64,000 bases of DNA from Octopus vulgaris (Eukaryota), in the NCBI GenBank assembly GCA_951406725.2, contig OX597819.1:84816001-84880000 (forward strand), read 5' to 3'. This document shows, piece after piece, positions 904 through 62,724 of this stretch; the stretch's first letter is position 1; each line of letters opens with the position of its first letter. A program made the translations under genes and the position numbers. The notes under the pieces were generated by a model that saw nothing but the letters and a program-made list of their open reading frames with translations, searched no databases and had not been told where the DNA came from.

Positions 904-1139
904 ATCGTTCAAGTATTTTCAACAGTCGAAATAAGTATAAACAAAAATCTGTAGTTAACACAAAAAAGTTAAACAAGTTTTCTGGTGGAGCTATAACGAA
1001 TGGATTTGGTCGTGCAGTAGCTAATTCATCTAAGCAAAACCACTTAAGCACTAACATTAAGTGCAATGATACTAGTTCAAGTAAATCAAATGCGCATATA
1101 GCACTGTTGGTTGGTAATTTTCCAATTGGAACTACAAAG
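904..1139 (+). CDS. Gene A exon: low-complexity linker plus RRM RNP2 (…HIALLVGNFPIGTTK)
   Basis: ttacag|atcg acceptor, aag|gtacgt donor; homologous to gene B exon 56711-56985 (ICLFVGNFPYGTSE) with the same phase-0 intron. Confidence 0.85.
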
Positions 1140-4100
1140 GTACGTTACAGCTCAATAATGGTATTGCTTTCATTGTCCTCAGCTTTATTATCATTTTGTT
1201 AATGGATTAAATAAGGTTTAACTGTTCATAAACCCCGAACTTTTAGTATTTGTTTTAGTCTTAGAAAACTTCATATTTTCCATTGGCTGCTATCATTCAC
1301 AAGTACTTGTCATTGTTTGCTTCACTGCTATTCATTTTCATTGTGGGTTTCGACTATTAAAGTCTTTAATCATTAACCCTTTAGCATTCATATTACCCTG
1401 TCAGATGAAATGCTTATTTATTCTCATTTAAAAAAAAAAAATCCTGTTTTATCTTGTAGCTTTGCGATTTCAAAGATGGGATTGTTTATTTTTAGAATGA
1501 CATTGCAGTGGAGATGTGAAAGTCTGGATCTGGCCGGTTTGGACTTAAAATAGGTAGAATATTTAGGCCAGATACAGTCAGTTTAAATGCTAAAGCATTA
1601 ATGTAGTTTGCTGAGGTTTTAATCTAGTTTACCACTTCAGTGTATTGTAACAAAATTCTTACTTACTGGATAGTCAATCATAAATTAACAGTACAAGGAT
1701 TGTACACTGACATTTATCTTGTAAATAATATAGTTTTTCTTTTTTAGTACTGCAAATACCTTACAAACAAGCATTCTGGGCTATGTTATAACTTGTTTTG
1801 AGTAAATAAAATTTTAAAGTGGATATTTCCCTTTCATTATGCCTTTCATCTTTCCAACCAGTAATTCATTTTTGCATTCATCTGTCTCTGTGTATGCATT
1901 TATCGATTCATCATTTTGTATAATTATACCATTTTATTTTTCATTAATGCTACAATGCTCTGGAAGCTGACAGAAAGTTAACTGAAAATAAGATGTCCCA
2001 TGTGTTATTTGATACAAAAGGATGAGAACCTAATATCTAGTTTAAATCAATGAAAGGCTAAGAGAATGGATTCATAATACAAGTGTGACATAACTAAAAA
2101 TAATAGATGGTTTTTTCAAAAAGAATACATAAAATACATTTTAAAAAAATGTAATTTTAAAAGAAAAATAGTATCAAAACTTATTCTTACTTACATAAAT
2201 GCAGATACTAACACTGCTCATTTTATATATATATATGTATATATTTATGTGTGTATATTGAATTTTTTTTTCGTGTCAGTATTTATACATGGTGTTATTT
2301 TTCAAATATTTTCAGGGGGAGTTGAATGCATTATTTTGGGACTATAATGTTTCACAAATTGAAATGGTAAACAATTCAAACTCTAAAAGGAGGTTAGTAC
2401 AATAATTTCATTTTTATTTTTATATTTTTAGTGTCATTATATTTATGGGTTTGAAATCTGTTATGCAGTTGGGGTTTTTTAACACGAATTGATTTGCTTT
2501 GAATTCAGGCATTATATACATCAAAATACAGCGTTGTTTATAACAGTGGTTCCCAAAGTAGGTGATACTGACCCCCTGGAGATGGTTGAAAGATCTGTTT
2601 GTGGTGGTATGTGTGTGCTAAGAATGTGGCCTAGGTGCCAACAGGGCAGCAGTCTGAAAAAGTTTGGGAACCACTGGTTTATAACAAACTGTAGATTGCA
2701 GTTCAATCTAATAAACAGCATACAACTGTATTAATAACTAAATAACAGTTAATAATACAACAATAAATACTCTAATATTAGGATTTTTTTTTTAGCATTG
2801 GGAAATATAAACATACACAGATATATATCGCCGTCCAACCCATGCTAGCATGGAGAACGGACGTTAAACGATAATGATAATGATGATGATGATGATGATG
2901 CAATCCTACTCAAGTTTAGGCAACAGTGTTTAGTTATGGAACAACTTGTTTTGGGGTTATGGTGTGCAGTTTATAGTATCTACAGGTAATTGGGATAGCG
3001 ACTGCCTGAAATGAACCTGAGTTCTCTCAGCAGGCTGTGGCCTTGGTGAACTCTTCTCAATAAGGTTATTTTAAAGACTATTATGTATTGTTGGCAAATA
3101 GATTTTTTTGTTGTTGTTTTGCTTTTCTTAATTACTTTAATTCTGTAGATTGATCATGCAGTCAAAAACTGTCATTTGAGTCCTTGATGACCTAAACATT
3201 CTAAACACTTTTGTCAAGAACAAGCTGAGATAGTTAGTCTATATGTATAAAGATGACAAACATTAATATTGTAAAGTTGACATTAATGAGTGAAAAGAAC
3301 CACATAGTTTATTTTGAATGAGTGTTTCTAAATAAGAGAGTAGCAGCACAAATTGTTCTGCTGGTCCTTCAGCATGGCAACAGGCTAGTAGTTGGAACCT
3401 GTAAGAAGGTTAAAAAAGGAGGAACAGTTAAGAATATGAATTGTTTGGTTTCTGCTTTTATCCTACCTCTAATTCAGTGATTCCTAACCTGTTCTGTGTC
3501 TTACACCCCAAGGAAATGATTAATTTATTTTCACATCCCTAACAAAAATATTGCAGTATTGCACTCAAAGATCAGAAACTTCAATTTTCTAATAAATGTT
3601 TTTTTTTTTTAATGAACCTCATACAATTCTGTAGAATAGTGAAGTTCTTGATATGCTTACTGTATTTGCTAGCATATAAGACAAAGTCTTGCATCATAAG
3701 ATGTATCCCTACCTGAATGTAATATGGCTGCATTGGACAAGTAACAATTTTTTGTTACTTTTACGAATATATAAAAAAAAGATTAATATATATGCTGGGA
3801 TATACAATCATAGTATCAAATTTTGGCATGAGGCCAGCAATGTTAAGGAGGGTGCTAATTGATTAAATCAACCCCAGTGCTCAACTGATACTTACTTCAT
3901 TGATTCCGAAAGAATGAAAGACAAGGTCGATCTTGACAGAATTTGAACTGAGAATGTAAAGGTGGGTGAAATGCCACTAAGCATTTTGTCCTGCATGCTT
4001 AATGATTCTGCCAGTTCTCCACCTTATGAGATATACAATAACATAGCAAAGTTATCTTTAAATGTAAGTGATTTTAATAAGGTAAATATTTACCCTCTTT

Positions 4101-5726
4101 GCTGCACACTTAAGGATATGAACATTCCAGGTTGGGAACAACTCTAATTATTATGCATAATCTCTCTATATATAAAACTGAGAATGTGTGTCTGTCTGCC
4201 TGTCTGTCTGTGTGTTTCCCTAAAACTTGAGAACTACACAACCAATTTCATTCAAATTTTACACATGTCTTACTTAGGGTCCATGTAGTTTCATGGGCAA
4301 AAAAAAATGTTCAACTTCTTGCCTAGGGCGAGCCCATAGCAATATCATATCTTCTCTACTATTTCAGTATTACATGTTAAAAGTGAAACAAAAACATTTC
4401 TCTATTTTATGTCAGATACTTTCACTTTAACAATAAAAATAATAATAACAACTGAATTATATGTAGTAAGTAATAATTAAAATCAAACTAAAGTATAATA
4501 TAATCGTAACATAACAAAAGTAAAAATAGCAATTGGTATAAAATTGCTTCAAGGATTTGAACTTGAATAAGTGGTTTCACATGAATGGGAATAAATTAAA
4601 AATAAAATTAGTGTGCAGAAATGGAATAGTCCTACAATTCCAGTCTGTTATATATTTTCAGTATTGTTATCACTAGCAATATCAAGATATAACTTTGTAT
4701 TTTGTATTTTATGTGTAGATGTACATGTAATATGTACACATATATACATACACTAGCACTATGACCCGGCAAAGACAGGTCATAATGCTAGTAATATATA
4801 TTTTGTATGTCTTAATTGAAATTTGTTTGTTTTATATTTTCAGCACTCAGGCTTTTCTTTATTTTTCTAACTTACAAGATCCTTATATGGCTATTGAAAA
4901 ATATGACAAGGCACAATATCTTAATCACAATTTATTTGTGGCCTTTGTTGATCCAGCTTATGTAACCAATAAAGAAGCAAAGCTAACTGGATCTAAACTG
5001 AAGAAGAAAACTCCTAAAACTAGAGGTAAGTTTGTTGTTTTTAAAATTTGTATTCTCTTTGTGTTTCATCTAACATCATATATGCATTTAAAATCTAAGT
5101 ATATTCACACACACTCACACACTCACACTCACACATGAGTGCGCAAACACACACATACCCACCTCTCTCATACATATACACGTATGTATATGTATGTGTT
5201 TGTATCTACACACAAACATATATATGTATGTATGCATATATGTGCATGCATACAGGTACACACACACACATACACTCAGGGTATATGTATGTCTACATGG
5301 TTAAGAAGTTTGTTTTACTTTGCAACCATGTGTTTCTAGTTTGGATTCTGCTGTGTAGCTCCTTGGACAAGTGTCAACTTCAATTGACTAACCATTCTGT
5401 GTATGAAATATAGTACCATATATGCTGGTGTATAAGATGTGATTTTTTTTTGCATACACATGAAAAAAAATTGGCATGCCTCTAATGCAACCATATTATG
5501 GATGGGATACTGAGTGTATGAATGTGTGATGAAACAATAATTTTGTTTTTTGCCACAAGAAAAGTAGGGGCTTGTCTCATTGAAGAGTGTGTCTTATAAA
5601 CTGGCAAATGTGGTAGACAAATTATATGGAAGTTTACTGAATGTGTGTATGTGTTTGTTTCTACAACAATTAATGTATAACATAGTTCATCTAAAAGAGA
5701 AATTCATTAAACAGTTCTTATGTGTA

Positions 5727-5758
<32 letters not shown>

Positions 5759-8700: not shown

Positions 8701-11700
8701 CCTAACCAATTTGTACCAACATTGACCATTACTAACCTATCTGTTCTAGTGACTAGCCTATTGCAGTTCTAGACTTTTACTAACAACCTGAACAGCTGTT
8801 TCCTCTTATGTTGCTCCATCATGGCATATATTGATGGAACACCTCTTTCTCTCTCCTTCTGCAATTGAGCTTCATCGACGTATATTCTCTCTGCAGACAC
8901 GCATATCCTCCATGAACAGAACATTTGAAAATCTCCTGCAGAAGAAAGTTGACAACCTACATTCATTCAACTACACCGAAACTCAGAGAAAAATGACAGC
9001 GCTGCATCCTCAATACTTGTGAACAACACAGCTAAGACCATCACACTTATTTCAAATGCTATGTTAGGCTTTCAATCTCTGATAACTTTTTGTGGTGACT
9101 ACACATATAACCACATAATGAAGATTGCATCACTGTTCACCCTATACAAGGTGCGGGTTCACTCCACACTGAAGTACTGCTCGCACATCTGAGATACTGC
9201 AGTTACTACACACATGCACATTCAAGACTGCATCAAAATTTCGCCGTCCACTTGACAGGCAAATCTTCAGTCATCAACAGTCTTCAACCACTTTTCCATT
9301 GTTGAAATGTCTTCCCTCTCTCTCTTCTACTCTAAGAAAAGAAACACAAAGCAATGGTCTCTGGCTTTCCTGAACTTAACTGAGTATATAACACTTCCAT
9401 GTACATCCATGTATTTCACTTGTCTCTCCTCCTATCATCCATACAGTGAAGCACCCCCCACTAGATCTAACTTTGCTCAATCTTTCTTCTTCAGAATTGC
9501 ATGTCTCTGAAATTCCTTCCCTGGCTATGTTTTCATCCCAACCATTGATTTCAAGAGGTCAAAAATGAACATAAGCCATGTTAACCTCTCCTAGCTGTCT
9601 CTACATACCCAGCGAAATAATAAATAAATAAATAAATAAATATATTTAGAAAGTCTAAGTTTTCTACTTGTTTTTCATTTGTATGTCTTCAATAAATTTA
9701 GACACTAAAACTTCAAACTTAGTACTGGCACCTAGACATGGTGTATCATGTAAATTTAATAAACAATCAATATAGTTTTGTTGTTCTATCTATATCTTAA
9801 TTTTTTGTGTACTATGTATTGTATAATAAAATATTACATTAAGTTTGCATTGTTTGTGTACTTCATCACCTACTTGCTTGCTAGTTAACTATGTATGTGG
9901 AGGAAATGAATGTTTCATTTGTTAATTTTTTTGTTTCTATTTACTTTTATATTTGATTTTATGTAATGTGTTTTAAAATGGTTTTTTTACTGATAACCTT
10001 TTTTAAAAATGGTTTTATACACACACATACTCTTTCATTCAGAAAGCAGTATATAAGAGAATGTCAGTAAAAATCTAGTTTATTTAGACGGTAAGGTGCA
10101 TATATTTAATTAATCCTTTTACTGTTGAAATCAGATACATCCACTCAAAATTTTATTGTCTTTAGTTGAGGGAAAGCAATTTTATATATTAATCTATTGT
10201 TGAGGAATGTCATGTTTTTGAAACTATTTTCTGTTGAAATATGTCAAATTTATTATAGTAAATTGACTTGTAAAAAAAATTCCAATTCTACTTTTTGGTA
10301 AACATTTAACATCATTACTGGAATAACCATGAAATTTAATTTTGGAGTTAAAGGGTTAAGACAACACTTCATATACAATCATGTGCATGATAACTTCTCT
10401 TTGCTGATGCACTTTTCAACACTTACACTGGTAATTCAGTGTTCTTAGCCAAGGTCAATATTTAGGTTTAAGCAAGTTTATATTGCAATTACAAGAGCAG
10501 AAGATCATCATAATGTGAATCTTTTGGCAAAAAGACATGTTTTAGCTCAAAAGTAAGGGAGGAAAAACATTCACAAATTGTTCTAAATGTTGTAATATTG
10601 AAATAAACTCTCCCCAGAGTTTTTTTTCTCTGTTTCATTTTTACCTAACTCAAGGCTAAACACCTATTTGTATTGTGATACTAGCAGATGGTCAGCCAAT
10701 CATATTTTTTAATCTGTTCGGCATACATCTTTCACCTAATTGAATGCTCCTGCTCATCTACCATTACTGGAAGAGGACTACTTTGCTTAATCAGTTTTCT
10801 CTGTCTGACAAACTGGTTTGGCATTGGAGGGAAATGTTATAAGTAACAATTAACTAGGTCAGCCCAAATTATTTATTTACATTTCTTTCAGCTTACAAAT
10901 GCTGGAAAAAGTGTTCTTAATTTAGTTGTTTATTCATTCATTCACAGTCGAAGCTTCCTTCATCAAACTAGTAGCAAAGGGAAGGCTTAAAAGATATATT
11001 CTCTTATGCATTTCAGCCCAAAGGCTGTGGCCATGCTGGGGTACCACGAATGTAATCACCTCAATGGCCAGTCTTATGTGATTGACTTTTGGTAAAAAGA
11101 AGGAGTTTGACATTGCTGCCTTCTTTTGAGCTTCTTACTGTGATGTAGGTTCATTTAGGACCTTGGACAGCAGGAAGTTAACTTGTTTCTTGAAAACACC
11201 CACCCCTACTCCATGAAAATCCCTCAGATGCTTTGGCAAGGCATTGAATAGCTAAGGATCCTTGAATCCCAAGCTGTTGCAATATGTGTTCCTCTCTCTA
11301 GATGGGATAGCTGGGACCTTTGAAACATTGCAATAACATCCCATTTTTTGGATGCTGGTATAGCTCTTGATACCAAAGTTTGGTGCCAACCCCTTCAAGA
11401 TGTTTTATGTCTCTCCCATCTTCACTCCAGGGGGTAAAGTTGTAGCTCTTTCAGTCTTTCCCAGTAGTTCAGCTGTTCTCTATATATACATGGCAAATAA
11501 GAAAATGGAGAGGATCCAAAAATGACATACATCAGCCATACTAGAATGTCTACCAGCTGCTGTATGTTGTTTTTGTATCCTCTCCATTTTCTTATTTGCC
11601 GTATAAATTAAGGGTAAACCACTTTTACCCCCGCCCATATATAACATTCAATTGCGAGATTGCTACATAATAACTAGTACTTGGGTACGAATAATTGGGT

Positions 11701-11780: not shown

Positions 11781-11814
<34 letters not shown>

Positions 11815-33483: not shown

Positions 33484-33516
33484 TCAATCTTTCATTTTCA
33501 CTAGTGTGATATAACC
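33484..33516 (-). CDS. Gene B candidate terminal coding exon (GYITLVKMKD*)
   Basis: Strong poly-T-cag acceptor; phase 0; supplies a final beta-strand-like peptide. Confidence 0.5.
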   Translation of the reverse strand, partial: GYITLVKMKD

Positions 33517-44669: not shown

Positions 44670-47600
44670 AGAGTTTATGAAAAAAACAACAAAAGACAAA
44701 GACAGGTGGTGTACAAAACAAACAGATGTATTAGTATAACGCTCAGGAAAAGAAAAAGTCTTTTACGTTTCGAGCCTACGCTCTTCTACAGAAAGGGACA
44801 CAGAAAACAAGGAGAGAAAAAAGATATATATATATATATATCTTAGTGTATGCATGTGTGCAAGTAGTATAAAAATGTATGCTTTTTTCTTTCTAAAATG
44901 ACACAGTAACTCTTAAAACAGAGTACCAGTTCTTAAAGATTCAAAAATAAATATTAAATAATGAAAACCAGTTAAATTGTCTTTTCACAATGTATTTGCA
45001 TTAAGCATGATATACAGATGGCTATTTTAATCTAATACCACTTCTGTTGCCCACAGTGGAATTTTATTTAGTTGCATGGATAATTGCAACACCAGTGATT
45101 TTGTTGCAATTATCCATGCAACAAAATCACTGTGTCAGTGGCAATAGATTTTGTCTTAGCATACTGTTAGTAGTGGATAAATGCTACTGACAAAGTGCAA
45201 AGAAACAGAAATGCGAATCTAGTATTGTCACCATTGTTGTTGGATGATTTTTCACTGTTATTAATATATTTTCTGTGTTTTTAAATGCAATTTGTCATAA
45301 TAGATATCTCCAGATGAATACTGCAGTTAACTTGCCTTTTGCAATGTATTTGCATTAAATATAATTAAGTATGATACACAGATAGCTGTATGTATGTGTG
45401 TGTGTGTGATTATGTTTGTACTCTCAACTCCCAACACCTGACAACTGATGTTGGATTTTTTCTCTCCATAACTTAGTGGTTTGCCAAAAGAGACCAATAC
45501 AATAAGTGCCAATCTTAAAAAAATAAATAAGTGTCGCAGTCAGTTGGCTCAACTAAATCCTTCAAGGTGGTGCCATAGCATGGCTGCAATCCAATGATTG
45601 AAACATGTAAAATATATATCCATGGGGAACTCAAATCACAGAATGTACTATTTTACTGGTTTTTAATCTTTGAACTGTACCCATGCTGCAGTAACATCTA
45701 TAAGAAATTTAGCTGAATATAAATTGCATGAATGGCAACCACAAGGTATTTTTGTTTGATGTACTTATTTACCAGCAATCCCTTTCTTATATATATGGCT
45801 TAGTGGTTAGGGTGTTGCACTCATGATCGAGCGATTGTGATTTCAAATCCTAGACATTGTGTTCTTGGGCAAACGCTTCATTTTGAGTTACTCTGCAATT
45901 TCTTCTATATCTGCACAAACATCTGATCACTATAAAATGAATCATTTGTGCAGGTTGGTTTGCAAAGGCTGAATGTTCATACATCATTTTTGATGGGTGA
46001 GTCCATTGTATGTGTGTGTATGTGTCACTTTCTCTCTCTACAGACACCCCAATGGACCCAGAGAAGATGAGGCCCTTCAGCTCTTTAGCTGCTCATCTAA
46101 GACAAGGTAACTCCAGGCAAATCCTGCATCCTGAGAAGTACTGGGCTTGTGGTATATATTGCACCAGACTAATAAAAAGTTTGAAGAAAGAGAGAGCAGG
46201 AATGGCTCTGCAAGAAATATGCCCAGTATTCATTGTGCAAGTTGATCAGTAAACAAAGACACCAGCTCCAACACCACCACACTTACTTTATGAATCTAGT
46301 GACAATAGGGGAAGAGGCAACAGGAAGACAGGTAGAAGATGTCTTCAGCTTTGACTCTATACACAGGTAGCCATAAGGTTGTCATGTTTCTGTATCTTGC
46401 TGAATCCTCATTTGTTGAAGTAGTAGGAGAGTCCATAATGCATGTATTATGTGTGTACGTGTGTGTGTATTGTTTCAGCATGTCTTCACACTCGTACCAT
46501 TTGAATGAAAATGGCAACACTTATTTAATTCTCTTGTGAACACAAACCTTGCAGCTTGGCAGTTACAATAGTTTCGACATGTGAAATGCAGTGGAGTCAA
46601 AATAATTTGCTTGAAAAGTAAGGGTTAGCAACAGGAAGAAATATATTTAAATTTATTTACCTTTTCACTAACTACATGAGCCCAAAAACAATACCTGTTC
46701 ACAACTCTTGTGATACATACTACAATTTCATTTGTCAGTAGTTCAGATTCTAGAGAAAATTCTCTATAAATATGGATCAGACGAGCGGTTTCTTTGTGGA
46801 AACTTATGATAGGATCCTGATCACTTGCTGTAGTGTTTTCTGGAAAAGATATAACCCAAAAGTGAAATTAACCCGTTTGTTATTATATTTCTGTTGACAT
46901 ACTTGGCCTCTGTTTCAATTAATTTCCAAAACAACGAAAAATTTAGTAAAGTAACTTTGTCACTATTGAGCTAGTATTTGAAACATAAATGTGAAATCTT
47001 GATGGAAGCTTTAAATTTAGATCACTTTAACCCTTTCGTTACCAAACCGCCCGAAAAAAATTTTGGTTAATGTGACCAAACCGCCCAAAGCTACCTATTC
47101 ATATTTAAATGAGAATATCAGAGCAAATCTCTTTAGTACATTCGTGAAAATACGTATTATACTTCGTAAAGAGTTCAACTACAGTTTTGTACAAAAATCG
47201 AAGTGTAATTTTAATTCCGTGAATTTTGGGAGATTTTTTTCCGAAATTTGTTCCTATTGTGTTTTCAAAATTTGTAATTCTGACAAAAAATGGATATGAA
47301 TTTCATTATATCAAGCAGCGAGTCAGAATTCGAAGGATTTTCTACTGAAGACCTTCATAAATCTAACTCTATGACTGAAAAAAAAAAAGCATGTGGTATT
47401 TGATAATGAATCTGATGTTTCATTTTCCGAAAGTGAAAACAGTGAATCCGAGAGTTCCGACAGCAATAAAGAAAATGAATTGGCACCTGAATGGAGTGAA
47501 AATTTAAAAACTGTTTCTTTCGGTGATTTTTCTGAAGAAACTGGACCAAGCCACAGACTTTCCCAGAAGAGTAAAGCCTTAGACTATTTCTTTTTACTTT

Positions 47601-49384: not shown

Positions 49385-49427
<43 letters not shown>

Positions 49428-52400
49428 TCATCATCATCATCATTTAACGTCCGCTTTCCATGCTAGCATGGGTTGGACGGTTCAACTGGGGTCTGGGGAG
49501 CCCGAAGGCTGCACCAGGCCAGTCAGATCTGGCAGTGTTTCTACAGCTGGATACCCTTCCTAACGCCAACCACTCCGAGAGTGTAGTGGGTGATTTTATG
49601 TGCCACCGACACAGGTGCCAGACGAGGCTGGCGAACGGCCACGCTCGGATGGTGTTTTTTTATGTGCCACCGACACAGGTGCCAGACGAGGCTGGCAGAC
49701 GGCCACGCTCGGATGGTGTTTTTATGTGCCACCGACACAGGTGCCAGATGAGGCTGGCGAACGGCCACAATCGGATGGTGTTTGTTACGTGCCCACGGCA
49801 CGGAGACCAGTCGATGCGGTACTGGCTACGGCCACGTTCGGATGGTTTTCTTATGTGCCACTGGCACTGGTACCACAAAGATACAAATTCCATTGATGTT
49901 CATCTATTTTGATTTGTTTTGATTTTCACTTGCCTCAACAGGTCTTCACAAGTGTCACAAGAAGGAAGGTATGCACAGGTGGACTGACTACGTCCCAGGT
50001 AGGGGCCACGGGTTATGGCCTGACTAGTCTTGCCGGGTCTTCGGATGGTGTTTTTATGTGCCACCGACACAGGTGCCAGATGAGGCTGGCGAACGGCCAT
50101 GATCAGATGGTGTTTGTTACGTGCCCACAGCACGGAGGCCAGTCGATGCGGTACTGGCTACGGCCACGTTCGGATGGTTTTCTTGTGTGCCACCGGCACT
50201 GGTACCACAAAGATACAAATTCCATTGATGTTCATCTATTTTGATTTGTTTTGATTTTCACTTGCCTCAACAGGTCTTCACAAGTGTCACAAGAAGGAAG
50301 GTATGCACAGGTGGACTGACTACGTCCCAGGTAGGGGCCACGGGTTATGGCCTGACTAGTCTTGCCAGGTCTTCGGATGGTGTTTTTATGTGCCACCGAC
50401 ACAGGTGCCAGATGAGGCTGGCGAACGGCCATGATCGGATGGTGTTTGTTACGTGCCCACAGCACGGAGGCCAGTCGATGCGGTACTGGCTACGGCCACG
50501 TTCGGATGGTTTTCTTGTGTGCCACTGGCACTGGTACCACAAAGATACAAATTCCATTGATGTTCATCTATTTTATATATATATATATATGTATGTATGT
50601 GTGTGTGTATGTTTGTGTGTCTGTGTTTGTCCCCCCAACATTGCTTGACAACCGATGGTGGTGTGTTTATGTCCCTGTAACTCAGTGGTTCAGCAAAAGA
50701 GACTGATAGAATAAGTACTAGGCTTACAAATAATAAGTCCTGGGGTTGATTAGCTCGACTAAAAGGCGGTGTCCAGCATGGCCGCAGTCAAATGACTGAA
50801 ACAAGTAAAAGAGTATATTCAGCAGTTTTGATAAGCATATTCAACTGTTTTGATACCAACCCACCTGGGATTGCTCTTGGTCCTATGATATAAAACTTCT
50901 CGTTTTAAAATGATCAAAATTTCATCAAACACCAGCTTAATAATGGCAACGTTATTTAATTAAATTCATTGTTATTCTCAAAATTAATTGAAGCAAAGGC
51001 AGCGTATTTCAACAAAAAAAACAAAAACAAAACAAACAAAAAAAGGGGTTAAATGCAAAATTAAATAAACCAGAAAATTTGAACAAGGAAGTATTTATAT
51101 TTCTTTTTTTTTTTAAAGCTGAAGGCTGCAGTAAAGTCTAAAGAAAGAGTAGTTACAATTATCTATACTTATTGATTGAAGACTGATGACTTGAGGAGGA
51201 AACAAAATAATCTGGTTGATGAAAAAACTAGCCAAGATTATCATAGGAAATTATCCAAAATTTCAGCTACAATAAATTATGTACTGTTTTCTAATTTTAG
51301 ACATTTAGCAATATGTTAGATCACATTATATTGATGAAATCCTTTCTTTGCTTGATCATAAATCTGTTCACATATTTTTAGTTTAAGGTAGCAAGCAGGC
51401 AAAATTGTTAGCATGTCCGACAAAATATTCAGCAGCATTTCTTCTGATTCATTACATTCTGAGTTCAAATTCCCACTGCCCTTAAAATTGCTGGTATTGC
51501 GCCACAATTGCTAATTTTTTACACTTTTACTTGTTTCAGTCATTTGACTGTGGCCATGCTGGAGTACCACCTTTAGTTGAGCAAATTGAACCCAGGACTT
51601 ATTCTTTGTAAGCCTAGTACTTATTCTATTGGTCTCTTTTGCCGAACCGCTAAGTTACGGGGACGTAAACACACCACCATCGGTTGTCAAGCGATGTTGG
51701 GGGGACAAACACAGACACAAAAACATACACACATATATATATATCGTTCGCCAGCCTCGTCTGGCACCTGTGTCGGTGGCACATAAGAAAACACCATCCG
51801 AGTGTGGCCGTCTGCCAGCCTCGTCTGGCACCTGTGTCGGTGGCACATAAAAAAACACCATCCGAGCGTGGCCGTCTGCCAGCCTGGTCTGGCACCTGTG
51901 TCGGTGGCACATAAAATCACCCACTACACTCTCAGAGTGGTTGGTGTTAGGAAGGGCATCCAGCTGTAGAAACACTGCCAGATCTGACTGGCCTGGTGCA
52001 GCCTTCGGGCTTGCCAGACCCCAGTTGAACCGTCCAACCCATGCTAGCATGGAAAGCGGACGTTAAACGATGATGATGATGATGATGATACATATATACG
52101 ACGGGCTTCTTTCAGTTTCTGTCTACCAAATCCACTCACAAGGCTTTGGTCGGCCCGAAGGCTATAGTAGAAAAAGAAAATTAAGATTATAAATTTTTCA
52201 TGCAAATTTTTTACTGAAATTTGATTCAATTTATAAAAATTTTCTAGTTGAAAAATTTTTTTAATTCTTAGTTTTGCTTGCTATAATTTAGTAATACAAT
52301 AAATGTTATTACCTTGAACTTCCTCGACAGATCCTGAACTATTTGAAAAGTTATCGTTAGTGAGTATTGCTTCAACATAAGGCGACGAAACAAGCAAAAC

Positions 52401-55400
52401 ATGACCTTTATATGTTGACTTGTCAAATTTCTTTATAGCTCTCTTCAAGTCAAAAGTGTTCCAAAAATATATAAAACTTTGAGTGCTTAAAAATAAAAAT
52501 AAAAACATTATACTTATACATACATACAGAAAATCAAATGAATAAATGAACTGAGGTATTTCAGATTGCAAGACATTGATGTCATAGGAGAGAAATGTGT
52601 CCACATGGATGATGGTGCACTTGTTTTTAATGAGTCTGCAAAGAAAGAAGCTTGGAGATGCCATTATGAAAGACTGCTGAACATGGAGAATGAATGGGAG
52701 GAGAGTCTGCCAAATGTTGACCCAACTGAGGGACAAGCTATTTGAATTGACAGTACCCTGGTAGATAGAGCAATTAAGGATATGAAGACGGGGAAAGCCC
52801 TCGGTCCATCAGGAATCACAACTGAGATACTTAAAATATCTGGCAGAGTGGGTTATGGTCTAGTCATCCATATTGTAAATCAGGTGGTACATGAAGTAGT
52901 CATACCCAATGACTGGTGTAGCAGCATCATAGTCAACTGCAACAAAGGTAAAGGTGATGCCTTAGATAGAAATAATTACAGAGGTATCAAATTGCTGGAT
53001 CAGGTGGTGAAAGTTGTGGAGAGAGTCATAGTCCAACTAATCTGAGAGAGAATTAGTCTAGATGAGATGCAGCTTGGCTTTGCACTAGGGAGAAGCATCA
53101 CTGATGCTATATTTCTGGTAAATCAACTGCAGGAGAAATACTTAGTCTTAAGATAAACCTCTGTAATTGGCTTTTGTTGACTTTGAGAAAGCTTTTGACA
53201 GAGTCCCTTGGAACTAGGGATAGACAAGTGGTTGGTGAGAGCTGTACAAGCCTTGTACAGGGACACTACCAGTATGGTGAGGGTGGGCAATGAGTACAGC
53301 AAAGAATTCAGAGTACAAGTAGGGGTTCACTAAGGATTGGTGTTCAGCCCCCTCTTGTTCACCATATTCCTCCAGGCAATAACAGAGGAATTCAAGACAG
53401 ACTACCTCTAAGTGCTTCTCTATGCTGATGACCTTGCTCTTAAAGCTGAATCACTACCTGAACTAGAGAAATTCCAGGTATGGAAACAAGGTCTAGAATC
53501 AAAGGGCTTTAGATTTAACTTGGCAAAAACGAAAGTCATAGTAAGTAGGAAGGCAAACAAATCACAAATCCCCTCAGGTAGATGGCTCTGCTCAATCTGT
53601 AGAAAAGGTGTAGGTAGAAACTCCATAAGATGCATCCAGTATAAGCTTTGGACACACAAAAGGTGCAGCAACATCAAAGGAAGGTTAACAGAGAAACTAA
53701 CTTTTGTATGTGAAGTTGCACTGGCATAATAAATGATTAACATTTGCGGAAAACAGACTATCAACTGCCAGGAGGGAAAGCTAGAGGTAGTAGATAGCTT
53801 CCAGTATCTAGGCCACCAGGTTAGTAGTGGAGGTGGTTGTTCCGAGAGTGTAGCTGTGAGAATAAGATTAGGCTGGGCAAAGTTCAGACATCTCCTACCC
53901 CTGCTGGCAACAAAGGGCCTCTATCTCAGAGTGAAAGGCAGATTGTAATGGAAAGCTTTGTTGTACCACAGATTGGCATTATTTCAAGCCAGCTGGCTTT
54001 TTTTGTGCAAACTGCATGTGCATTTTTCTCGCATACGCGTAGTATCGATCACAACAGCTGATGTACTTGCATGTACAAATGCACGTTCCCATGGCTTTAT
54101 CGATGGCATTCTCACCTGGAATCGATTTTTGTGATTTTTTCAAGACTTATACACGCCCTGATACCATCGGTATCTACATATCAAATTTGAGCGCAATCAG
54201 ATGGAGGATGCCCGAGATCCAAGAAGACACACACATATATATATATAAACAAGAAAATATATATAATACAGACAGGAAAACAGAATTCAAAACATGATCA
54301 TACACATATTTTTCTTTAACTGGCAGACATTACAATGTGATGCATGAGGACAGAGTTTTGCACATTAACAATTATAAAACTGGTTTCAAATTAGTGGGAC
54401 TTGCCAAATATATATATATAACCATATCTTAGTCAGTCAGTGGAAGGACTTCACTACCTCATATGTTCTTAAAATTTAAATCCACATCTTTGTCTGTATA
54501 TCTACCTTCTCTATAATGTTGCCACTTGATTTGAAAATTTTTGTATTAATGGAAAACCTCTATAATTGGCATCTTAAATCTGTTGTAATACTTACAACAT
54601 TTAATAAAATGATGTAGTATATAACGATCGTATCAAATTACTGGAGTCATTCTTGTTGCTTATTTTGATTATATATATATAAACCTTGTGAGTGGATTTG
54701 GTAGATGAAAACTGAAAGAAGCTTGTTGTGTACATATGTATGTGTGTACCAGTGTTGGTATATTTACATCCCCATAACTTAGCACTTCAGCAAGACTGAT
54801 AGAACAAATACCAGACTTAACAAAAAATAAGTACTGGGGAGCGATTCATTCGACTAAAAATTCTTCAAGGTGATGCCCCAGCATGGACACAGTCTAATGA
54901 CCGAAACAAGTAAAAGACAAAAAAAATGGAAGATATATCTTACCTATATTTCTTGTTATCACTATTCTTAACAAGTGCAAACAGAGGGTTGACTGGGTGA
55001 AAAAGTTCCATCAAGTCATTCTGCAAAGTTCATACATTAATACGCATGTAGCAATAGTCACAAAATACACAATACTAAATGAAAGAGAATGTGGGCTTGA
55101 TGACCAGATTATCATGTTTTGATCTTAGTGGGTCATTTCAGCTTTGTGTAATCAAGGTCACATGTTCTCTATTTAGTATTTATTATTCGGTAATGACATG
55201 TTCAATAATAGGTGCGGGAGTGGCTGTGTGGTAAGTAGCTTGCTTACCAACCACATGGTTCCAGGTTCAGTCCCACTATAGTAGAAGTGTCTTGGTTTGA
55301 CCAAAGCCTTGTGAGTGGATTTGGTAGACAGAAACTGAAAGAAGCCCATCATATATATATGTGTGTGTGTGTTTGCCCTCCCAACATTGCTTGACAACCG

Positions 55401-58400
55401 ATATTGGTGTGTTTACATCTCTGTAACTTAGCAGTTCGGCAAAAGAGATCAATAGAATAAGTACTAGGCTTTCAAAGAATAAGTCCATGCTCCAGCATGG
55501 CCGCAGTCAAATGACTGAAATAAGTAAACGAGTAAAGCTTACAACAATAATTACATATCTGATACAGTAAATAAATTAATATTCTGCAAAAATATTTTTT
55601 GCTTGTTTCAGTCATTAGGCTATGGCCATGCTGGGGCACCACCTTCAAGAGATTTTAGTCAAATGAATTGACTGCAGTACTTTCTTTTTTTTAAAGCCTG
55701 TTAGTTATTCCATCAGGCTCATGCCGAACTGTTAAGTTACGGAGATGCCAACTCACCAACATCGGTTGTCAAGAAGTGGTGGAGAACAAACATAAAGACA
55801 CACACACACATATATATTATACACAACAGGCTTCTTTCAGTTTCCATCTACCAAATCCACTCACAAAATTTACACAGCCATGCCTAGGTTTGTGATAGTT
55901 TGTATAAATATTTAATTCTATGAAACTCATTGGTGTAATCATGGTGTGAGATTAACATCTGTGCTTTCAACTAATGGCTTTGTTTAGTTGCTTGACATAG
56001 CACCTTGAGCAACTGTTTCCTACTATAGCCTCAAATTAATAAAAAATATTTATGAATTTGTTTTACAAGATTCCTCATGTGAACTTATATGTTGAAACAT
56101 TGTTATACAACAGGATTGTTATTTCCTTTTTTCCTTGCCAAAGAAACACATGCACCATATATTCGTTCTTCACTCGTTTACTATTGTTCTTATTTTATCT
56201 TATGTCCATTGTCTGGAAATCTTTCATTACATATCTGTGATCTCTTCAGTGATTTTTCCATCCACATTTTTTTCCTCCTGTTCTGCTTAGTCCGTTCTGT
56301 TTTTCGATCAGAATGAATTTAACAGAAAGACACAATGGACTAAACAAAACAGGAGGATACACATGGATGGAAGAGTTGCTGAAGAGGTCACAGATGTGTG
56401 ACGAAAGATTTCCAGACAATGGACATAAGATAAAATAAGAACAGTGATAAATGAGTGAAGACAAATATACAGTGCATGTGTTTACTTGGCATGAAAAAAA
56501 TATGACCAGTCACTCTGCACTTTTGAAAACCTTTGGAATAAAACAACCCTGACTTATAAAACAGTTAAGGGCATCAGGCAGTAAACTGCTAGCACATATA
56601 AGGCCCCTAGCCAGCCCAAGATGGCATGGGGAAAATGGATGCTAAACAAATGAATGAATAAATATAAAATGTATCTCTTAATATTTTAGTAACCTAAAAT
56701 AAAACTTTACCTCACTGGTACCATATGGAAAGTTACCAACAAATAAACAAATTCCATTCTCGAAGGAGACAGTTTCATAATCATTCCTTAGAACTTTTCC
56801 AAGAGCAGAGGTATTCAATTCAGAATTAGTTTCATTTTCTTGCAGATTGAAACCAATATCTTCAAGTGGTGGCATGACTGCAGGTTTAGGTTCAAGTTGC
56901 TTGGAATTATGTATGTGAGATGTAGCTGATTTCTTTTCAGATTTCTTTGATTTAGTTTTCTGTGAAACCATTTTTTGGGGAGATTCTAGAAATAAAGTTC
57001 ACAGGTAAGATTCAACAAACGTAATTCAAGAAAATATGCATTACCACTTCTAATTATACAAATATAGTTATACTTAGTTATGGTTGGGAGTCTGTATGTA
57101 AGAAAATGATGTGCTGTTTTTCATCCAATGCTCTGAATGTATGTATAATTAAAAATCCATTGTGTTATTAATTCATAATACCATAATAATAATAATAATA
57201 ATAATCCTTTCTACTAAAGGCACAAGGCCTGAAATTTTGGGAGAGGGGCTAGTTGATTACATCAACTCCGGTGTTTCACTGGTACTTAATCTATCAACTG
57301 CAAAAAGATGAAAGGCAAAGGTGACCTTAGTGGAATTTGAACTCAGAACATAGCGGCAGATGAAATACTGTTAAGCATTTCGCCTGGCATGCTGATTCTG
57401 CCAGCTTGCTGCCTTAATAATGATGATGATAATAATAGTAATGCTGGCATTGCCGCCACCACCACCACCACTTAACGCCTGTTTTCCATGCTGACATGGG
57501 TTAGACAGTCTGACTAGATCTGCTATGCTGGAGAGCTGCACCAGACTCCAGTCTCTATTTTGGATTGGTTTCCATAGGTTCACCTCCATAAAAACAGGTC
57601 AGCAGGTGAGCATAATTTATGCTTGTTCATTCAACCAAATTCTAAATGTGCACCATGAGGTAGATAGAATTTACTGCTGCAAGGGACAGGATATTGTTTT
57701 ATTAGAGTAAAGTGTTCAGATCAAGTCTTCCAATATGTAGAAACGACTTGAAAGTTCACATTTAGTGAAGAGTTTTCAATCTAAATCAGCAGTGGCATGA
57801 TTAGATCTGAAATGTTTTTGATACCTGGAGAGTAAAAGCTTATTCAAAGTTACTCATTACATATGAGCATCCTCTGTGACACTGATAGCTTGATTGGAGG
57901 ATATCATATTGATAAAACTTAACTGTTTTATAAACATTGAGAAATGGTAAAAGAAATTGGAAATTTCTCAAGATATCATATGGTTCTGTACTTCAGAAAA
58001 AAGACAGTATATGAAGGCTGAGTTGAAAATATATATAATATATATTCAATACTTGAACTAAGAAGAAAGTTTTAATTGTAAGAATGAATGCATGAACAAA
58101 GTAAATATATAGAGATGTCAGAGAGTAATAATCAAGGTAATACTTGAAAAAGAATGTCAAAGAATAACAGTGACAGAATGGCAGCAAGAAAAAAATGGAT
58201 AAAGGTGATAGGAAATAGAGATTTTATTTTATCTAAGAATTGGCTGAAACTAGTAAAAGGCAAATAAAAAAAAAGAACTTAGAGAAATCAGTAAAAAAGA
58301 TTGTAATTGATGATGAAAACAATGATGAGGAATGTTATTAAGGAAGCAGAAGGTTTGGTAGTTAAATGGTTAAAAAAAATATAATTTTAGTTCATCATCA

Positions 58401-61400: not shown

Positions 61401-62724
61401 TGGCATGGATTGGACAGTTTGACAGGAGCTGGCCAGCTGTTCAGACATCAGTTGTCTATTTTGGTAAGGTTTCTATGGCTAGATGCCCTTCTTAATGCCA
61501 ACCACTTTACAGAGTGTGCTGGGTGTCTTTTACATGCAACTAGCATGAGTATGTTTATGCAGCACCAGTACAAGTGCATTTTATGTGGTACCAGTATGAG
61601 CACATATTATGTGGCACCGGCACCTGCAAAGGACATGCCTGTATGTATGGATGACTACAAATTTACACAAATACTAAATACTAAAGTGATAGTGGGGGAG
61701 AATCATGATGAATATTTAGCAACAAAAATCTTGTAGAAGTGTGACCTGTTACAATAGAGAAAAATATTAATAATCAGTTTTAAAAAAGAATATTTACCCT
61801 CCATTATAGAATCATTACTTTTACTTTGCTGTTTGTATGACTTAATGATCAGTCTTCTTGACTTGAACAGCTTACCATATGACCTAAATATTTTGTCAAT
61901 ATCACTCTTGCATCCAACTTTAGCAAAAGCAAAACTGAAAGTATGAAACAAAGAACATTATGAACATCGTCAATAATAAAGAGTAGAAAATTTTTTTTAT
62001 CTCAATAAATAGAAGTGGTCATTTGATAAACAAGATTATAAAAACACATGCACTCCATCTCTCAAGCACTAGATCTTCTGAGTGTCTTATGTTACTGCAG
62101 CAACCTTTGTACTTCCAAATGTGCTAATTACACTGTGTAACATGATTTTTGTCCTTGAGTAGCAACTGTCATTTCCTATTTGCTTACCCTTTGAAAGTAT
62201 GATAAATGACTAATATTTCCTTCAAACCCTGCTTTTGTTACATTTATTCAAACTCCAAAGAATCCTTCTCGACACATGGCTATGATGCTCCCCCACTACT
62301 CCTGCTTATGCTCAGATATGCGTACATTGTCAACCACTCATGCTCAAGTGGTTAAGGTCAAGTAACTGACAAGCAAATCTGTGGTATTGAGCAGAATATT
62401 TGCTATAACGATATTTCTGCTTCAGCAATTCTGTGCTGAATCTATCTGAAGTGTAATGGAAAATAGGTCAGTTTCAAAATATTGATATCCAGCTCACAAA
62501 ATCAAATTAAAGGAAATAGTAGTCATTTCCTTTGATTTCTTTATAGGAAATAACACTCACTAACCAAAGACAAAAAAAAAAAATTTAATTTTGTTAGTGT
62601 TATGCCACTCCTATTGAAATTTACTTCTCTTTATATGCTCCACTGCATTGGAATGCCATTGCAAGCAATGGGTTGTTCTTATTTCTAAATCTGTTAACAG
62701 AGGAGACGCAAATGTCAGAAACCT
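33484..62724 (-). CDS. Gene B: RRM(-RRM)-extended Tudor protein, TDRD10/Vreteno-like architecture; exons 62625-62724?, 61798-61934, 56711-56985, 54944-55020, 52313-52485, 46661-46839, 42058-42176, 38564-38715, 38349-38428, 33484-33516?
   Basis: Eight internal exons join in frame with GT-AG and matching phases; RRM (LFVGNFP…SFIYF) and eTudor (VCITRVVNRYCFWAH…CVAMY…WFRGYI…VFFVDVGN…IWRLSPMA) motifs; first and last exons uncertain. Confidence 0.8.
33667..34745 (-). mobile_element. Internally deleted piggyBac, copy 2
   Basis: TTAA flanks, same TIRs, near-identical to copies 1 and 3; ORF 34033-34359 ends WFPITLNEIK. Confidence 0.9.
36219..36564. mobile_element. hAT MITE
   Basis: cagcagttctcaacc…ggttgggaaccccta; TSD ctctaaac. 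Confidence 0.8.
37925..38323 (+). mobile_element. Third retroposon family with internal ~57-65-bp tandem units and (GAT)n tail; other copies ~20265-20583, 38935-39247, 40405-40715(-), 49425-49870(-), 51746-52090, 58393-58608(-)
   Basis: Shared core gtggttggcgttaggaagggcatccagctgtagaaac…ccgtccaacccatgctagcatggaa plus (gat)n. Confidence 0.8.
38349..38428 (-). CDS. Gene B exon (KSFKELPGNVLQEKISLVILKLETASS)
   Basis: gtttcag|aa, tca|gtgagt; phase 1-0. Confidence 0.8.
38564..38715 (-). CDS. Gene B exon: Tudor core (GYILKIISSECAEVFFVDVGNIAEINFQFIRLSSDIIWRLSPMARAFKIP)
   Basis: ttccag|a, a|gtaagt; phase 2-1; FVDxGN Tudor signature. Confidence 0.9.
39935..40160 (-). mobile_element. Second SINE family (ggcggcgagctggcaga…gagttcaaattccgc…); other copies ~3815-4027, 14553-14762, 41760-41975(+), 57183-57420
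   Basis: B-box gttcaaatt; multiple similar copies. Confidence 0.8.
42058..42176 (-). CDS. Gene B exon: eTudor helix plus Tudor beta1-2 (…AGRCVAMYHSKWFR)
   Basis: ttttcag|aat, cg|gtaaat; phase 0-2. Confidence 0.88.
42542..43439 (-). mobile_element. Second family of deleted piggyBac (acidic N-terminus joined to C-terminal Cys-rich domain)
   Basis: TTAA flanks; TIR ccccttaatggat/atccattaaggga; minus strand MDEDLDILSDHESD… and IRRENRYMCNVCKITLCVTPCFKNYHSK*. Confidence 0.85.
43684..44287 (+). mobile_element. 5'-truncated RTE (BovB-like) LINE 3' end
   Basis: …FIFLGSKINRDGDCTPEIRRRI…YGYKTWTLKK…FELWCWRRLLRIPWTA; (ATAG)n tail; TSD gtatgaa; two stops near the end. Confidence 0.9.
46661..46839 (-). 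CDS. Gene B exon: eTudor N-terminal strands (…EIVVCITRVVNRYCFWAHVVSEK)
   Basis: ttttccag|aa, aag|gtaaat; phase 1-0; V-x-I-T-x-V-x(3-4)-FW motif of extended Tudors. Confidence 0.85.
46868..48142. mobile_element. Short piggyBac-type TTAA MITE split by copy 3
   Basis: ttaacccgtttgtta…gatcactTTAA[insert]aacagg…aaaagggtcaa; another copy at ~50840-51052. Confidence 0.7.
47027..48079 (+). mobile_element. Internally deleted piggyBac, copy 3 (opposite orientation), nested in a short TTAA MITE
   Basis: TTAA flanks, TIRs, ORF 47393-47683. Confidence 0.9.
49709..50573. repeat. 332-bp tandem repeat, ~2.6 copies
   Basis: Units start at 49709, 50041, 50373; near-identical ORFs offset by 332. Confidence 0.9.
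52313..52485 (-). CDS. Gene B exon: RNP1-alpha2-beta4 (STQSFIYFWNTFDLKRAIKKFDKSTYKGHVLLVS…)
   Basis: tttttaag|c, aag|gtaata; phase 2-1. Confidence 0.88.
52553..53946 (+). mobile_element. Degenerate RTE-clade LINE reverse transcriptase fragment
   Basis: GKALGPSG…NYRGIKLLD…AFVDFEKAFDRVP…LLYADDL…FQYLG motifs with stops and frameshifts. Confidence 0.9.
53947..54240. mobile_element. Helentron/HINE-like fragment
   Basis: ctacatatcaaatttgagcgcaatc followed by an (ac)n microsatellite; abrupt junction with the LINE. Confidence 0.4.
54944..55020 (-). CDS. Gene B exon (NDLMELFHPVNPLFALVKNSDNKKY)
   Basis: tttgcag|aat, ag|gtaaga; 77 nt. Confidence 0.85.
56127..56500. repeat. Long imperfect inverted repeat (~175-bp arms, short loop)
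   Basis: Same peptide CSYFILCPLSGNLS.HICDLFS on both strands in the ORF track. Confidence 0.9.
56711..56985 (-). CDS. Gene B exon: linker plus RNP2 (…GICLFVGNFPYGTSE)
   Basis: tttctag|aa, gag|gtaaag. Confidence 0.85.
58981..59852. mobile_element. hAT MITE containing a Helitron, inserted in a LINE fragment
   Basis: cagtggttctcaacc…ggttgaaaatcactg; TSD gtctagag/gtctaggg. Confidence 0.8.
59238..59601 (+). mobile_element. Non-autonomous Helitron-like element
   Basis: 5' TC-tctatatatataaa; 3' hairpin tagcactatgacccggc-gtt-gccgggtcatagtgcta. Confidence 0.7.
61798..61934 (-). CDS. Gene B exon: RNP1-like FAFAKV…DIDKIFRSYGKLFKSRRLIIKS (N-terminal RRM second half)
   Basis: ctttcag|t, gagg|gtaaat; phase-1 end fits exon 56985. 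Confidence 0.65.
62625..62724 (-). CDS. Gene B candidate upstream exon (…ICVSSVNRFRNKNNPLLAMAFQCSGAYKE), first half of a divergent RRM
   Basis: Donor aa|gtaaat phase 2 fits the next exon; acceptor ambiguous (62724 or 62690); a separate ATG ORF at 62802 is in another frame. Confidence 0.35.

What the first reader, a model, noticed from the sequence alone, without database searches (positions are those of the whole stretch)
904..62724. Convergent pair of diverged RRM + extended-Tudor paralogs (TDRD10/Vreteno-like)
Seen: two tail-to-tail genes share intron positions and phases. These include the intron right after GNFPxGTxx, identical 77-nt second RRM exons, and Tudor exons of phase 0-2, 2-1 and 1-0, yet protein identity is low. 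Established: RRM+eTudor architecture occurs in TDRD10 and Drosophila Vreteno (a piRNA-pathway factor), and eTudors bind methylarginines of PIWI proteins. Inference: an old local inverted duplication of a fast-evolving germline/piRNA-type adaptor, possibly a cephalopod-specific expansion that is easily missed because the exons are small.
Basis: partly seen in the sequence, partly recalled or inferred. Interest (0 to 1): 0.72.

Follow-up and report, generated by a model that had tools for sequence, protein, structure and literature searches.

The report
Octopus TDRD10 twin that lost Tudor
Two tail-to-tail octopus genes are old copies of the poorly understood RNA-binding gene TDRD10; one still encodes a Tudor domain, while the other encodes only RNA-binding domains and carries its Tudor exons as broken relics, likely a split of one germ-granule adaptor into two jobs.

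Summary
The pair is real and the shared RRM intron pattern is exact. But only gene B (minus strand) encodes RRM-RRM-eTudor (Pfam, AlphaFold and Foldseek), and its methylarginine cage is eroded. Gene A (plus strand) encodes two RRMs and no Tudor. Its annotated proteins in three Octopus species jump into the first surviving Tudor exon in another frame and stop at 19194. The Tudor exons are true relics: 28.6 bits against at most 8.5 in 300 random chains. They carry stops, a frameshift and a lost acceptor, and an independent run has the same frameshifted stretch. Gene A is not fast-evolving: it is 98.4% identical between O. vulgaris and O. bimaculoides, against 85% for B. The family is TDRD10-like, not Vreteno, and not cephalopod-specific. 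Bivalve, limpet and hemichordate members are LOTUS-RRM-eTudor proteins, the mollusc ones mostly with intact cages, although TDRD10 has been called a chordate innovation. Germline or piRNA function is inferred, not shown. New variant of a known kind; interest 0.45.

The parts
904..1139 (+). Gene A exon (phase 1-0): linker and first strand of RRM2, ending at GNFPxGTxx. Upstream exons with RRM1 and the MPxLE motif lie before the window
2316..2392 (+). Gene A 77-nt RRM2 exon (phase 0-2)
4844..5025 (+). Gene A exon (phase 2-1): end of RRM2 and a lysine-rich tail
8897..8928 (+). Gene A alternative last exon (326/328-aa isoform X3, ends just after RRM2)
   Evidence: splicing to it reproduces the end of P0013
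14052..14375 (+). Gene A low-complexity, basic linker exon (phase 1-1); no counterpart in gene B
   Evidence: contigs of runs X6 and X19 lie on 14050-14373 only, with flanks that do not continue into the introns (table 8)
18985..19057 (+). Probable relic of the first Tudor exon (only a CFW motif remains; stops or frameshift upstream; no open phase 1-0 exon). Weakly supported
   Evidence: adds only 1-3 bits to the relic score; not found by the exon profile
19144..19259 (+). Relic Tudor exon (ancestral phase 0-2), now entered in phase 1; it encodes the last 17 residues of gene A in another frame, with stop TGA at 19194-19196
19348..19503 (+). Relic Tudor core exon (ancestral phase 2-1): CAA instead of an AG acceptor, a one-base frame break, TAG at 19418-19420
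   Evidence: same sequence in an X17 contig over 19130-20051 with no gaps
21991..22067 (+). Relic Tudor exon (phase 1-0), open, with good AG/GT ends; lies after gene A's stop codon
63702..63772 (-). Gene B RRM1 exon (phase 0-2); further 5' exons lie beyond the window
61798..61934 (-). Gene B RRM1 exon (phase 2-1)
56711..56985 (-). Gene B exon (phase 1-0): linker with MPPLE motif and first strand of RRM2, ending at GNFPxGTxx
54944..55020 (-). Gene B 77-nt RRM2 exon (phase 0-2)
52313..52485 (-). Gene B exon (phase 2-1): end of RRM2
46661..46839 (-). Gene B first eTudor exon (phase 1-0)
42058..42176 (-). Gene B eTudor exon (phase 0-2), with cage residues Y396 and F401
38564..38715 (-). Gene B eTudor core exon (phase 2-1); D-V-G-N instead of D-Y-G-N
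   Evidence: Pfam TUDOR E 2e-4 on this exon alone
38349..38428 (-). Gene B eTudor exon (phase 1-0)
33484..33516 (-). Gene B last coding exon with stop

Best explanation
Gene B encodes an RRM-RRM-extended-Tudor protein and gene A an RRM-RRM protein whose Tudor exons are broken relics; the two are likely the halves of an old local duplication of the octopus TDRD10-family gene that then split its roles. Steps. (1, shown) Relatives in bivalves, a limpet and a hemichordate are LOTUS-RRM(s)-[MPxLE repeats in the molluscs]-RRM-eTudor proteins, and the mollusc Tudor cages are mostly intact. (2, inferred from what LOTUS and eTudor domains do in TDRD5/7 and TDRD1) That ancestor was a germ-granule adaptor joining RNA or a DEAD-box helicase to methylated partners. 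(3, shown for the annotated proteins) Both octopus copies lack LOTUS and the first ancestral RRM. (4, inferred) The gene was duplicated tail-to-tail before Octopus and Argonauta split. (5, shown) Copy B kept the eTudor fold but lost one to three of four cage aromatics, so it likely docks partners without reading methylarginine (inferred). (6, inferred order) In copy A the first Tudor exon (phase 1-0) died. Skipping it joins a phase-1 donor to a phase-0 exon, which shifts the frame and ends the protein 17 residues later (join and stop shown). The downstream Tudor exons, freed from coding, decayed. (7, shown) The shortened protein is almost invariant across three Octopus species, so it is likely a working RNA-binding protein with a Tudor-independent role and not a pseudogene.
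For: Exact spliced matches to annotated proteins. None of the 13 members of gene A's cluster reaches into a Tudor: 7 end with the shifted-frame 17 residues, 4 at the short X3 end, 2 otherwise; Pfam finds RRMs and no Tudor in P0003 and P0012. P0018, from an unnamed 1515-nt contig, runs across the RRM2, linker and shifted-frame joins. Relic score 28.6 bits against a maximum of 8.5 in 300 null chains. An X17 contig over 19130-20051 has 4 other letters, all at or after 19506, and no gaps; X6 contigs over 18882-19062 and 19403-19600 are identical to the window. Gene B model pLDDT 91.6; best Foldseek hits are Drosophila Tudor, Krimper and TDRD1 eTudors, E 2e-11 to 1e-9. RRM tree: A, B and two unnamed proteins form a clade (95/98), with Argonauta inside clade B (99/97). 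Named vertebrate TDRD10s (pig, lungfish, Ascaphus, Xenopus) are among the hits of gene B. A vertebrate-TDRD10 RRM profile ranks invertebrate family members in the top 8 of 121 RRM domains. Conservation O. vulgaris versus O. bimaculoides: A 434/441; B RRM1 61/72 and Tudor 142/159.
Against: No expression by tissue and no binding data were obtained, so the germ-granule role is only inferred. TDRD10 orthology is not clean: a multi-Tudor protein (P0026) ranks first on the vertebrate-TDRD10 Tudor profile and gene B ranks 49th of 855; two or three multi-Tudor domains fall inside the family side of the Tudor tree, which has SH-aLRT support only. The tree does not resolve whether A and B are sisters (AU p 0.26). 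No gene A orthologue with an intact Tudor was found, so the loss is undated beyond being older than the O. vulgaris / O. bimaculoides split. Two relic exons (116 and 77 nt) are still open in the Tudor frame. The read-laying run was swamped by repeats and did not list the splice joints.
Confidence: 0.72

Rival explanations
1. Both genes encode RRM+eTudor proteins, and gene A's breaks are assembly errors or are repaired by alternative splicing or A-to-I editing.
For: The relics keep order, phase and length; two of them are open; an in-frame alternative acceptor exists at 19327. Homopolymer runs at the frame break are typical error sites. Heavy A-to-I editing in octopus is recalled, not tested.
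Against: The same gap-free sequence is in an independent run with another organism label (X17) and partly in X6. The shifted-frame end is annotated in three species. No open first Tudor exon was found. Editing cannot mend a frameshift. Even read through, the relic has W-S-H for W-Y-R and no D-Y-G-N.
Confidence: 0.05
2. Gene A is a slowly dying or dosage-sharing duplicate with the same RNA targets as gene B (no new role); its RRMs are kept only as back-up.
For: Tudor loss is typical of decay. Gene A's stop lies 63 nt before the donor at 19259, which would expose the mRNA to nonsense-mediated decay if that donor is used (inference from the recalled 50-55 nt rule).
Against: 98.4% identity over 441 residues including linkers, higher than gene B. 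A long branch to gene A before this stasis (1.07 changes per column) points to divergence followed by constraint.
Confidence: 0.13
3. The octopus and other invertebrate genes are not TDRD10 orthologues but a separate LOTUS-RRM-Tudor family (for example an offshoot of TDRD5/7), and the RRM+Tudor layout arose twice.
For: LOTUS plus Tudor is the hallmark of TDRD5/7 (PMC9200344). TDRD10 was scored as a chordate innovation (PMC5381599). Tudor-tree support is modest and no labelled TDRD5/7 or TDRD1 domain was in my tree.
Against: Both the RRM and the Tudor point to vertebrate TDRD10. The same [ML]PxLE motif follows an RRM in 4 of 5 vertebrate TDRD10s checked, against 7 occurrences in 247,853 residues of 124 background hits. 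Frog TDRD10s have three Pfam RRMs. One clade is not rejected (AU p 0.81).
Confidence: 0.15

Closest known systems
Vertebrate TDRD10 (pig NP_001233127.2, Xenopus XP_012810199.1, Ascaphus XP_075464047.1, lungfish XP_043935312.1)
   Same: RRM(s), an [ML]PxLE motif, and one C-terminal eTudor with a non-canonical cage. Function listed as unknown in PMC12147562 (table passage).
   Different: Octopus has two copies tail-to-tail, one without Tudor. The cage is eroded at different positions (vertebrate W-N-R and D-[FY]-G-[RHL]; octopus W-F-R and D-V-G-N). Identity is only about 16-24% over the Tudor region.
Uncharacterised invertebrate LOTUS-RRM-eTudor proteins (Sinanodonta KAL3865760.1, Patella XP_050400355.1, Pecten XP_033729670.1, Mactra KAL4227975.1, Ptychodera XP_070542865.1)
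   Same: Closest relatives outside the octopod and unnamed-assembly hits (four of the five within the top 25); same last RRM with GNFxxG and MPxLE repeats in the four molluscs, same eTudor.
   Different: They carry an N-terminal LOTUS domain, the molluscs an extra RRM, and they keep D-Y-G in the cage; both octopus proteins lack LOTUS.
Drosophila Vreteno / Aedes Veneno
   Same: RRM plus eTudor; the Vreteno paper describes eTudors without an intact cage binding partners through other surfaces (PMC12526068).
   Different: They have one RRM, a MYND finger and two eTudors, and Vreteno is described as closest to TDRD1. Gene B has two RRMs, no MYND and one eTudor.
TDRD5/Tejas, TDRD7/Tapas, C. elegans LOTR-1
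   Same: LOTUS plus eTudor, as in the invertebrate relatives; LOTR-1 also has V at the last cage position (PMC9200344).
   Different: No RRMs in their described layouts (PMC5458760); the octopus genes have no LOTUS.

Membership tests
TDRD10 family (gene B) | RRM(s) N-terminal to a single extended Tudor domain (PMC12147562 table) | tested here: met
   Pfam RRM_1 x2 (E 4e-15) and TUDOR x1 (E 2e-8); eTudor fold
TDRD10 family (gene B) | Tudor domain groups with vertebrate TDRD10 apart from multi-Tudor proteins | tested here: inconclusive
   Family side split from 42 of 45 and 42 of 44 outgroup domains at SH-aLRT 95-97, with intruders; AU p 0.81; outgroup domains unnamed
TDRD10 family (gene B) | Reciprocal similarity of RRM and Tudor to named vertebrate TDRD10 | tested here: met
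   Forward: named TDRD10s among the 150 best hits. Reverse, within the session's proteins only: gene B RRM1 4th of 121, Tudor 49th of 855. The set is biased towards gene B look-alikes
TDRD10 family (gene B) | Shared synteny or intron positions with vertebrate TDRD10 | not testable with these tools
   no animal genomes are held
TDRD10 family (gene A protein) | Encoded extended Tudor domain | tested here: not met
   no TUDOR hit in P0003 or P0012; stop at 19194. It is a paralogue by descent, not an RRM+Tudor protein
Vreteno/Veneno | MYND zinc finger between RRM and Tudors | tested here: not met
   no zf-MYND in P0004; the same library finds it in P0150 and P0165
Vreteno/Veneno | Two eTudor domains | tested here: not met
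   one TUDOR stretch
Canonical methylarginine-reading eTudor | Four aromatic cage residues (mouse TDRD1 TD3 F767, Y774, F791, Y794) plus R775 and D793 (PMC9200344) | tested here: not met
   By alignment gene B has Y, F, F, V (O. vulgaris, O. sinensis), C, F, L, V (O. bimaculoides), Y, F, L, I (Argonauta); R and D kept. 6 of 7 mollusc-type relatives read at all four positions keep four aromatics
TDRD5/TDRD7 (LOTUS+Tudor) | N-terminal LOTUS domain | tested here: not met
   no OST-HTH in P0001-P0004 or P0012; the 5' exons outside the window were judged from annotated proteins only
piRNA-pathway factor | Germline expression, nuage localisation, PIWI or Vasa binding, piRNA loss on depletion | not testable with these tools
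   no tissue-labelled RNA holder was listed

The most novel reading that the evidence does not exclude
TDRD10 is not a chordate orphan but an ancient bilaterian LOTUS-RRM-eTudor germ-granule scaffold, a third such family beside TDRD5 and TDRD7. Vertebrates and octopods each stripped it of LOTUS and eroded its cage. Octopus then split it into a fast-changing Tudor-bearing copy and a near-invariant Tudor-less RNA-binding protein with a new role outside the piRNA pathway, whose fossil Tudor exons may now act as a regulatory 3' UTR.
Probability: 0.3. Interest if true: 0.7.

Novelty: new variant of a known kind. Interest (0 to 1): 0.45.

Why it matters
Human TDRD10 is listed as function unknown (PMC12147562) and was scored as chordate-only (PMC5381599). 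The relatives found here give it a likely ancestor with LOTUS and an intact methylarginine cage. That makes a Vasa/PIWI link directly testable in a bivalve or limpet protein. The octopus pair is also a clean case of domain loss through the death of one frame-keeping exon, with the relic exons still readable and the shortened protein strongly conserved. Duplication followed by domain loss is itself ordinary, both genes are already in NCBI annotations, and no function is shown, which caps the score.

Tried and rejected
No whole genome is held for this window, so synteny and a third octopus copy could not be checked directly; none turned up among the 150 listed representatives (of 252 with E up to 0.001).

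Pfam on 15 single exon segments found TUDOR in 1 and RRM in 0; they are too short.

The third word-based homologue search (alignment A2) returned only 2 known proteins and gave no gene A orthologue outside Octopus; this is weak evidence of absence.

Sequencing-run search: 20 of 24 listed runs (9 studies) hold half or more of the words of exon 14052-14375, but no RNA holder is listed, so nothing is drawn on expression.

Laying 4 runs on 14000-25600 was swamped by repeats, and the splice joints were not among the rows shown. Two hints from it are not used as evidence: little or no cover of 19418-19804 in three runs, and cover at 24238/24243 but not at 24094-24140 in X3 and X6.

A last Tudor exon for gene A near 24069-24210 was considered, but the exon profile did not find it. 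The segment at 62724-62625 was dropped as a gene B exon. P0063 was first put in the family and was in the Tudor profiles, but its Tudor pairs with a multi-Tudor protein; it was left out together with P0162 and the relic. The careful Tudor tree did not finish, so quick trees are reported.

PDB sequence search gave only generic RRMs. Earlier findings of this scan: none.

Literature: 8 searches showed no paper on these octopus genes or on a LOTUS-bearing TDRD10. The supplement of PMC12147562 was too large to read, and the supplement of PMC5381599 held as text has no TDRD10 entry (figures not seen). Either may already record this architecture.
Full report
What the window holds. The DNA is AT-rich and full of short repeats. 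Exon searches hit named Octopus proteins at up to 100% identity. Gene B (minus strand) corresponds to O. vulgaris CAI9724516.1 ('domain-containing 10-like', 489 aa), O. sinensis LOC118763904 and O. bimaculoides LOC106871557. Gene A (plus strand) corresponds to LOC115212823 / LOC106871559 (441-443 aa). Splicing ten window exons reproduces gene B residues 59-489, and five exons reproduce gene A residues 153-441. The genes converge, with about 14 kb between A's stop (19196) and B's stop (33484).

The shared gene structure is real. Both genes have a phase-0 intron right after GNFPxGTxx, a 77-nt phase 0-2 exon and a phase 2-1 exon. RRM1 is 22/72 and RRM2 33/74 identical. Each protein has two Pfam RRMs and one MPxLE motif between them.

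Gene B has a true extended Tudor with an eroded cage. Pfam gives TUDOR at E 2e-8. The AlphaFold model of the last 175 residues has pLDDT 91.6, and Foldseek's best matches are eTudors of Drosophila Tudor, Krimper, TDRD1 and SND1. Using the TDRD1 cage positions quoted in PMC9200344 (passage), alignment gives Y-F-F-V in O. vulgaris and O. sinensis, C-F-L-V in O. bimaculoides and Y-F-L-I in Argonauta. Of 7 mollusc-type relatives read at all four positions, 6 keep four aromatics. PMC12526068 (section 26) states that such domains are unlikely to bind methylarginine and use other surfaces.

Gene A has lost its Tudor. No member of its 13-protein cluster extends into a Tudor. The main isoform joins exon 14052-14375 (phase 1) to 19144, an exon whose Tudor frame is phase 0, and stops at 19194-19196. 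The same 17-residue end is annotated in three species and appears in P0018 from an unnamed contig. For the exon that should bridge the phases (gene B 46839-46661), no open AG..GT phase 1-0 counterpart was found in the stretch before 19144 that I scanned; only a CFW motif remains near 19030. The next relic has CAA for the acceptor, a one-base frame break and TAG at 19418. These are real relics: read with X at the break, three of them score 28.6 bits on a profile without octopod sequences, against median -1.8 and maximum 8.5 for 300 matched random chains. Singly, only one relic beats all 40 shuffles at protein level and a different one stands out at DNA level. Assembly error is unlikely: a contig of run X17 spans 19130-20051 with no gaps and its 4 differences lie at or after 19506, and X6 contigs match 18882-19062 and 19403-19600 exactly. 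The splice joints themselves were not displayed in that call.

Gene A is conserved, not fast. O. vulgaris versus O. bimaculoides: gene A differs at 7 of 441 residues (0 of 74 in RRM1); gene B differs at 11 of 72 in RRM1 and 17 of 159 in the Tudor. No genome-wide baseline or dN/dS was available, so 'purifying selection' is an inference.

The family. A search of 1.84 billion representatives with gene B gave 252 hits at E up to 0.001, of which 150 were listed. The best are Argonauta GAB1607306.1, two unnamed proteins (P0020, several RRMs plus an intact Tudor; P0021, three RRMs and no Tudor) and then molluscan proteins interleaved with long multi-Tudor proteins. Of 13 invertebrate RRM+Tudor members scanned (P0063 not counted), 5 carry an N-terminal LOTUS: Sinanodonta, Patella, Pecten, Mactra and Ptychodera. 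P0088 also has LOTUS and RRM. Named vertebrate TDRD10s are in the same hit list. They share RRM(s), an [ML]PxLE motif (4 of 5 checked; background 7 in 247,853 residues) and one Tudor. A profile of vertebrate TDRD10 RRMs ranks family members in the first 8 of 121 RRM domains. The Tudor profile puts all 17 labelled domains (P0063 among them) within the first 68 of 855, but ranks a multi-Tudor protein first. Quick Tudor trees separate the family plus vertebrate TDRD10 from 42 outgroup domains at SH-aLRT 95-97, with two or three intruders; one clade is not rejected (AU p 0.81). TDRD10 orthology is thus likely but not proven. It conflicts with PMC5381599 (passage), which calls tdrd10 a chordate innovation. 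Vreteno is excluded by the lack of MYND and of a second Tudor.

Age of the duplication. In the RRM tree, A, B, P0020 and P0021 form one clade (95/98), Argonauta sits within B (99/97), and the order of A, B and the two unnamed proteins is open (AU p 0.26 for A+B). The duplication is therefore likely older than the Octopus-Argonauta split; whether it is older still cannot be told. Both octopus copies lack the first ancestral RRM, which P0020 and P0021 appear to keep; this mildly favours an octopod event (inference).

How it most likely works. The ancestor combined LOTUS (a Vasa-binding, Vasa-stimulating module when extended; PMC5458760 passages), RRMs and a caged eTudor, which is the make-up of a germ-granule adaptor (inference; whether these LOTUS domains are of the extended kind was not tested). 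Gene B likely remains an RNA- or helicase-binding adaptor whose eTudor docks partners without methyl reading. Vreteno's RRM binds a helicase core in PMC12526068 (passages), which offers a model, not evidence. Gene A likely acts as a two-RRM RNA-binding protein with a basic, low-complexity tail, uncoupled from Tudor partners. I put 0.85 on the anatomy and history and about 0.4 on a germline or piRNA role for gene B.

Papers seen: passages and section 5 of PMC12147562 (supplement unreadable); passages of PMC5381599 and a term search of its one text supplement; passages and section 26 of PMC12526068; passages of PMC5458760, PMC9200344, PMC2848206, PMC5485951 and PMC6411831; search listings only for the rest. 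Eight searches showed no description of these genes or of a LOTUS-bearing TDRD10. The library lacks most subscription papers, and unseen supplements may hold it. The nonsense-mediated-decay distance rule, the extent of octopus RNA editing and the piggyBac end signature are recalled, not from calls.

Verdict. A real paralogue pair, misread in one half: TDRD10-like gene B with a non-canonical eTudor, and a conserved Tudor-less gene A with fossil Tudor exons. New variant of a known kind, interest 0.45; the most interesting lead is the LOTUS-bearing ancestry of TDRD10.

Noticed in passing
window 14908-15946, 33665-34745, 47027-48081: Three copies of a ~1.05-kb element, 92-93% alike, with TTAA-CC(C/T)T...AGGG-TTAA ends and a decayed reading frame; looks like a non-autonomous piggyBac-type element (label recalled).
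   Followed up: partly
window 53647-53519 (minus), in gene B's intron: The O. bimaculoides gene B models (P0002, P0005) use a stretch matching this intronic, retroelement-like sequence in place of part of the RRM2 exon, and a 223-aa form stops after the 77-nt exon (P0006). This may be an annotation slip or a real disruption of RRM2 in that species.
   Followed up: no
window 19194-19259: Gene A's stop lies 63 nt before a strong donor; if the downstream relics are spliced as 3' UTR exons, the mRNA would be a candidate for nonsense-mediated decay.
   Followed up: partly
window 8897-8928: Alternative last exon of gene A (isoform X3), annotated in all three Octopus species; it ends the protein right after RRM2.
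   Followed up: yes
proteins P0021, P0068, P0075 (unnamed assemblies): Other Tudor-less RRM-MPxLE-RRM proteins of the same family, so Tudor loss may have happened more than once, or these are partial transcripts.
   Followed up: partly
proteins P0027, P0029, P0041, P0159: The MPxLE motif is repeated 4-6 times before the last RRM in several relatives and kept once in both octopus genes; a conserved short linear motif of unknown partner.
   Followed up: partly
window 49709-50574: Tandem duplication with a period of about 332 bp, 98% alike, inside a gene B intron.
   Followed up: no
window 62625-62724 (minus): AG..GT-bounded 100-nt segment, open in two frames, not used by the annotated gene B; a possible minor or false exon.
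   Followed up: partly
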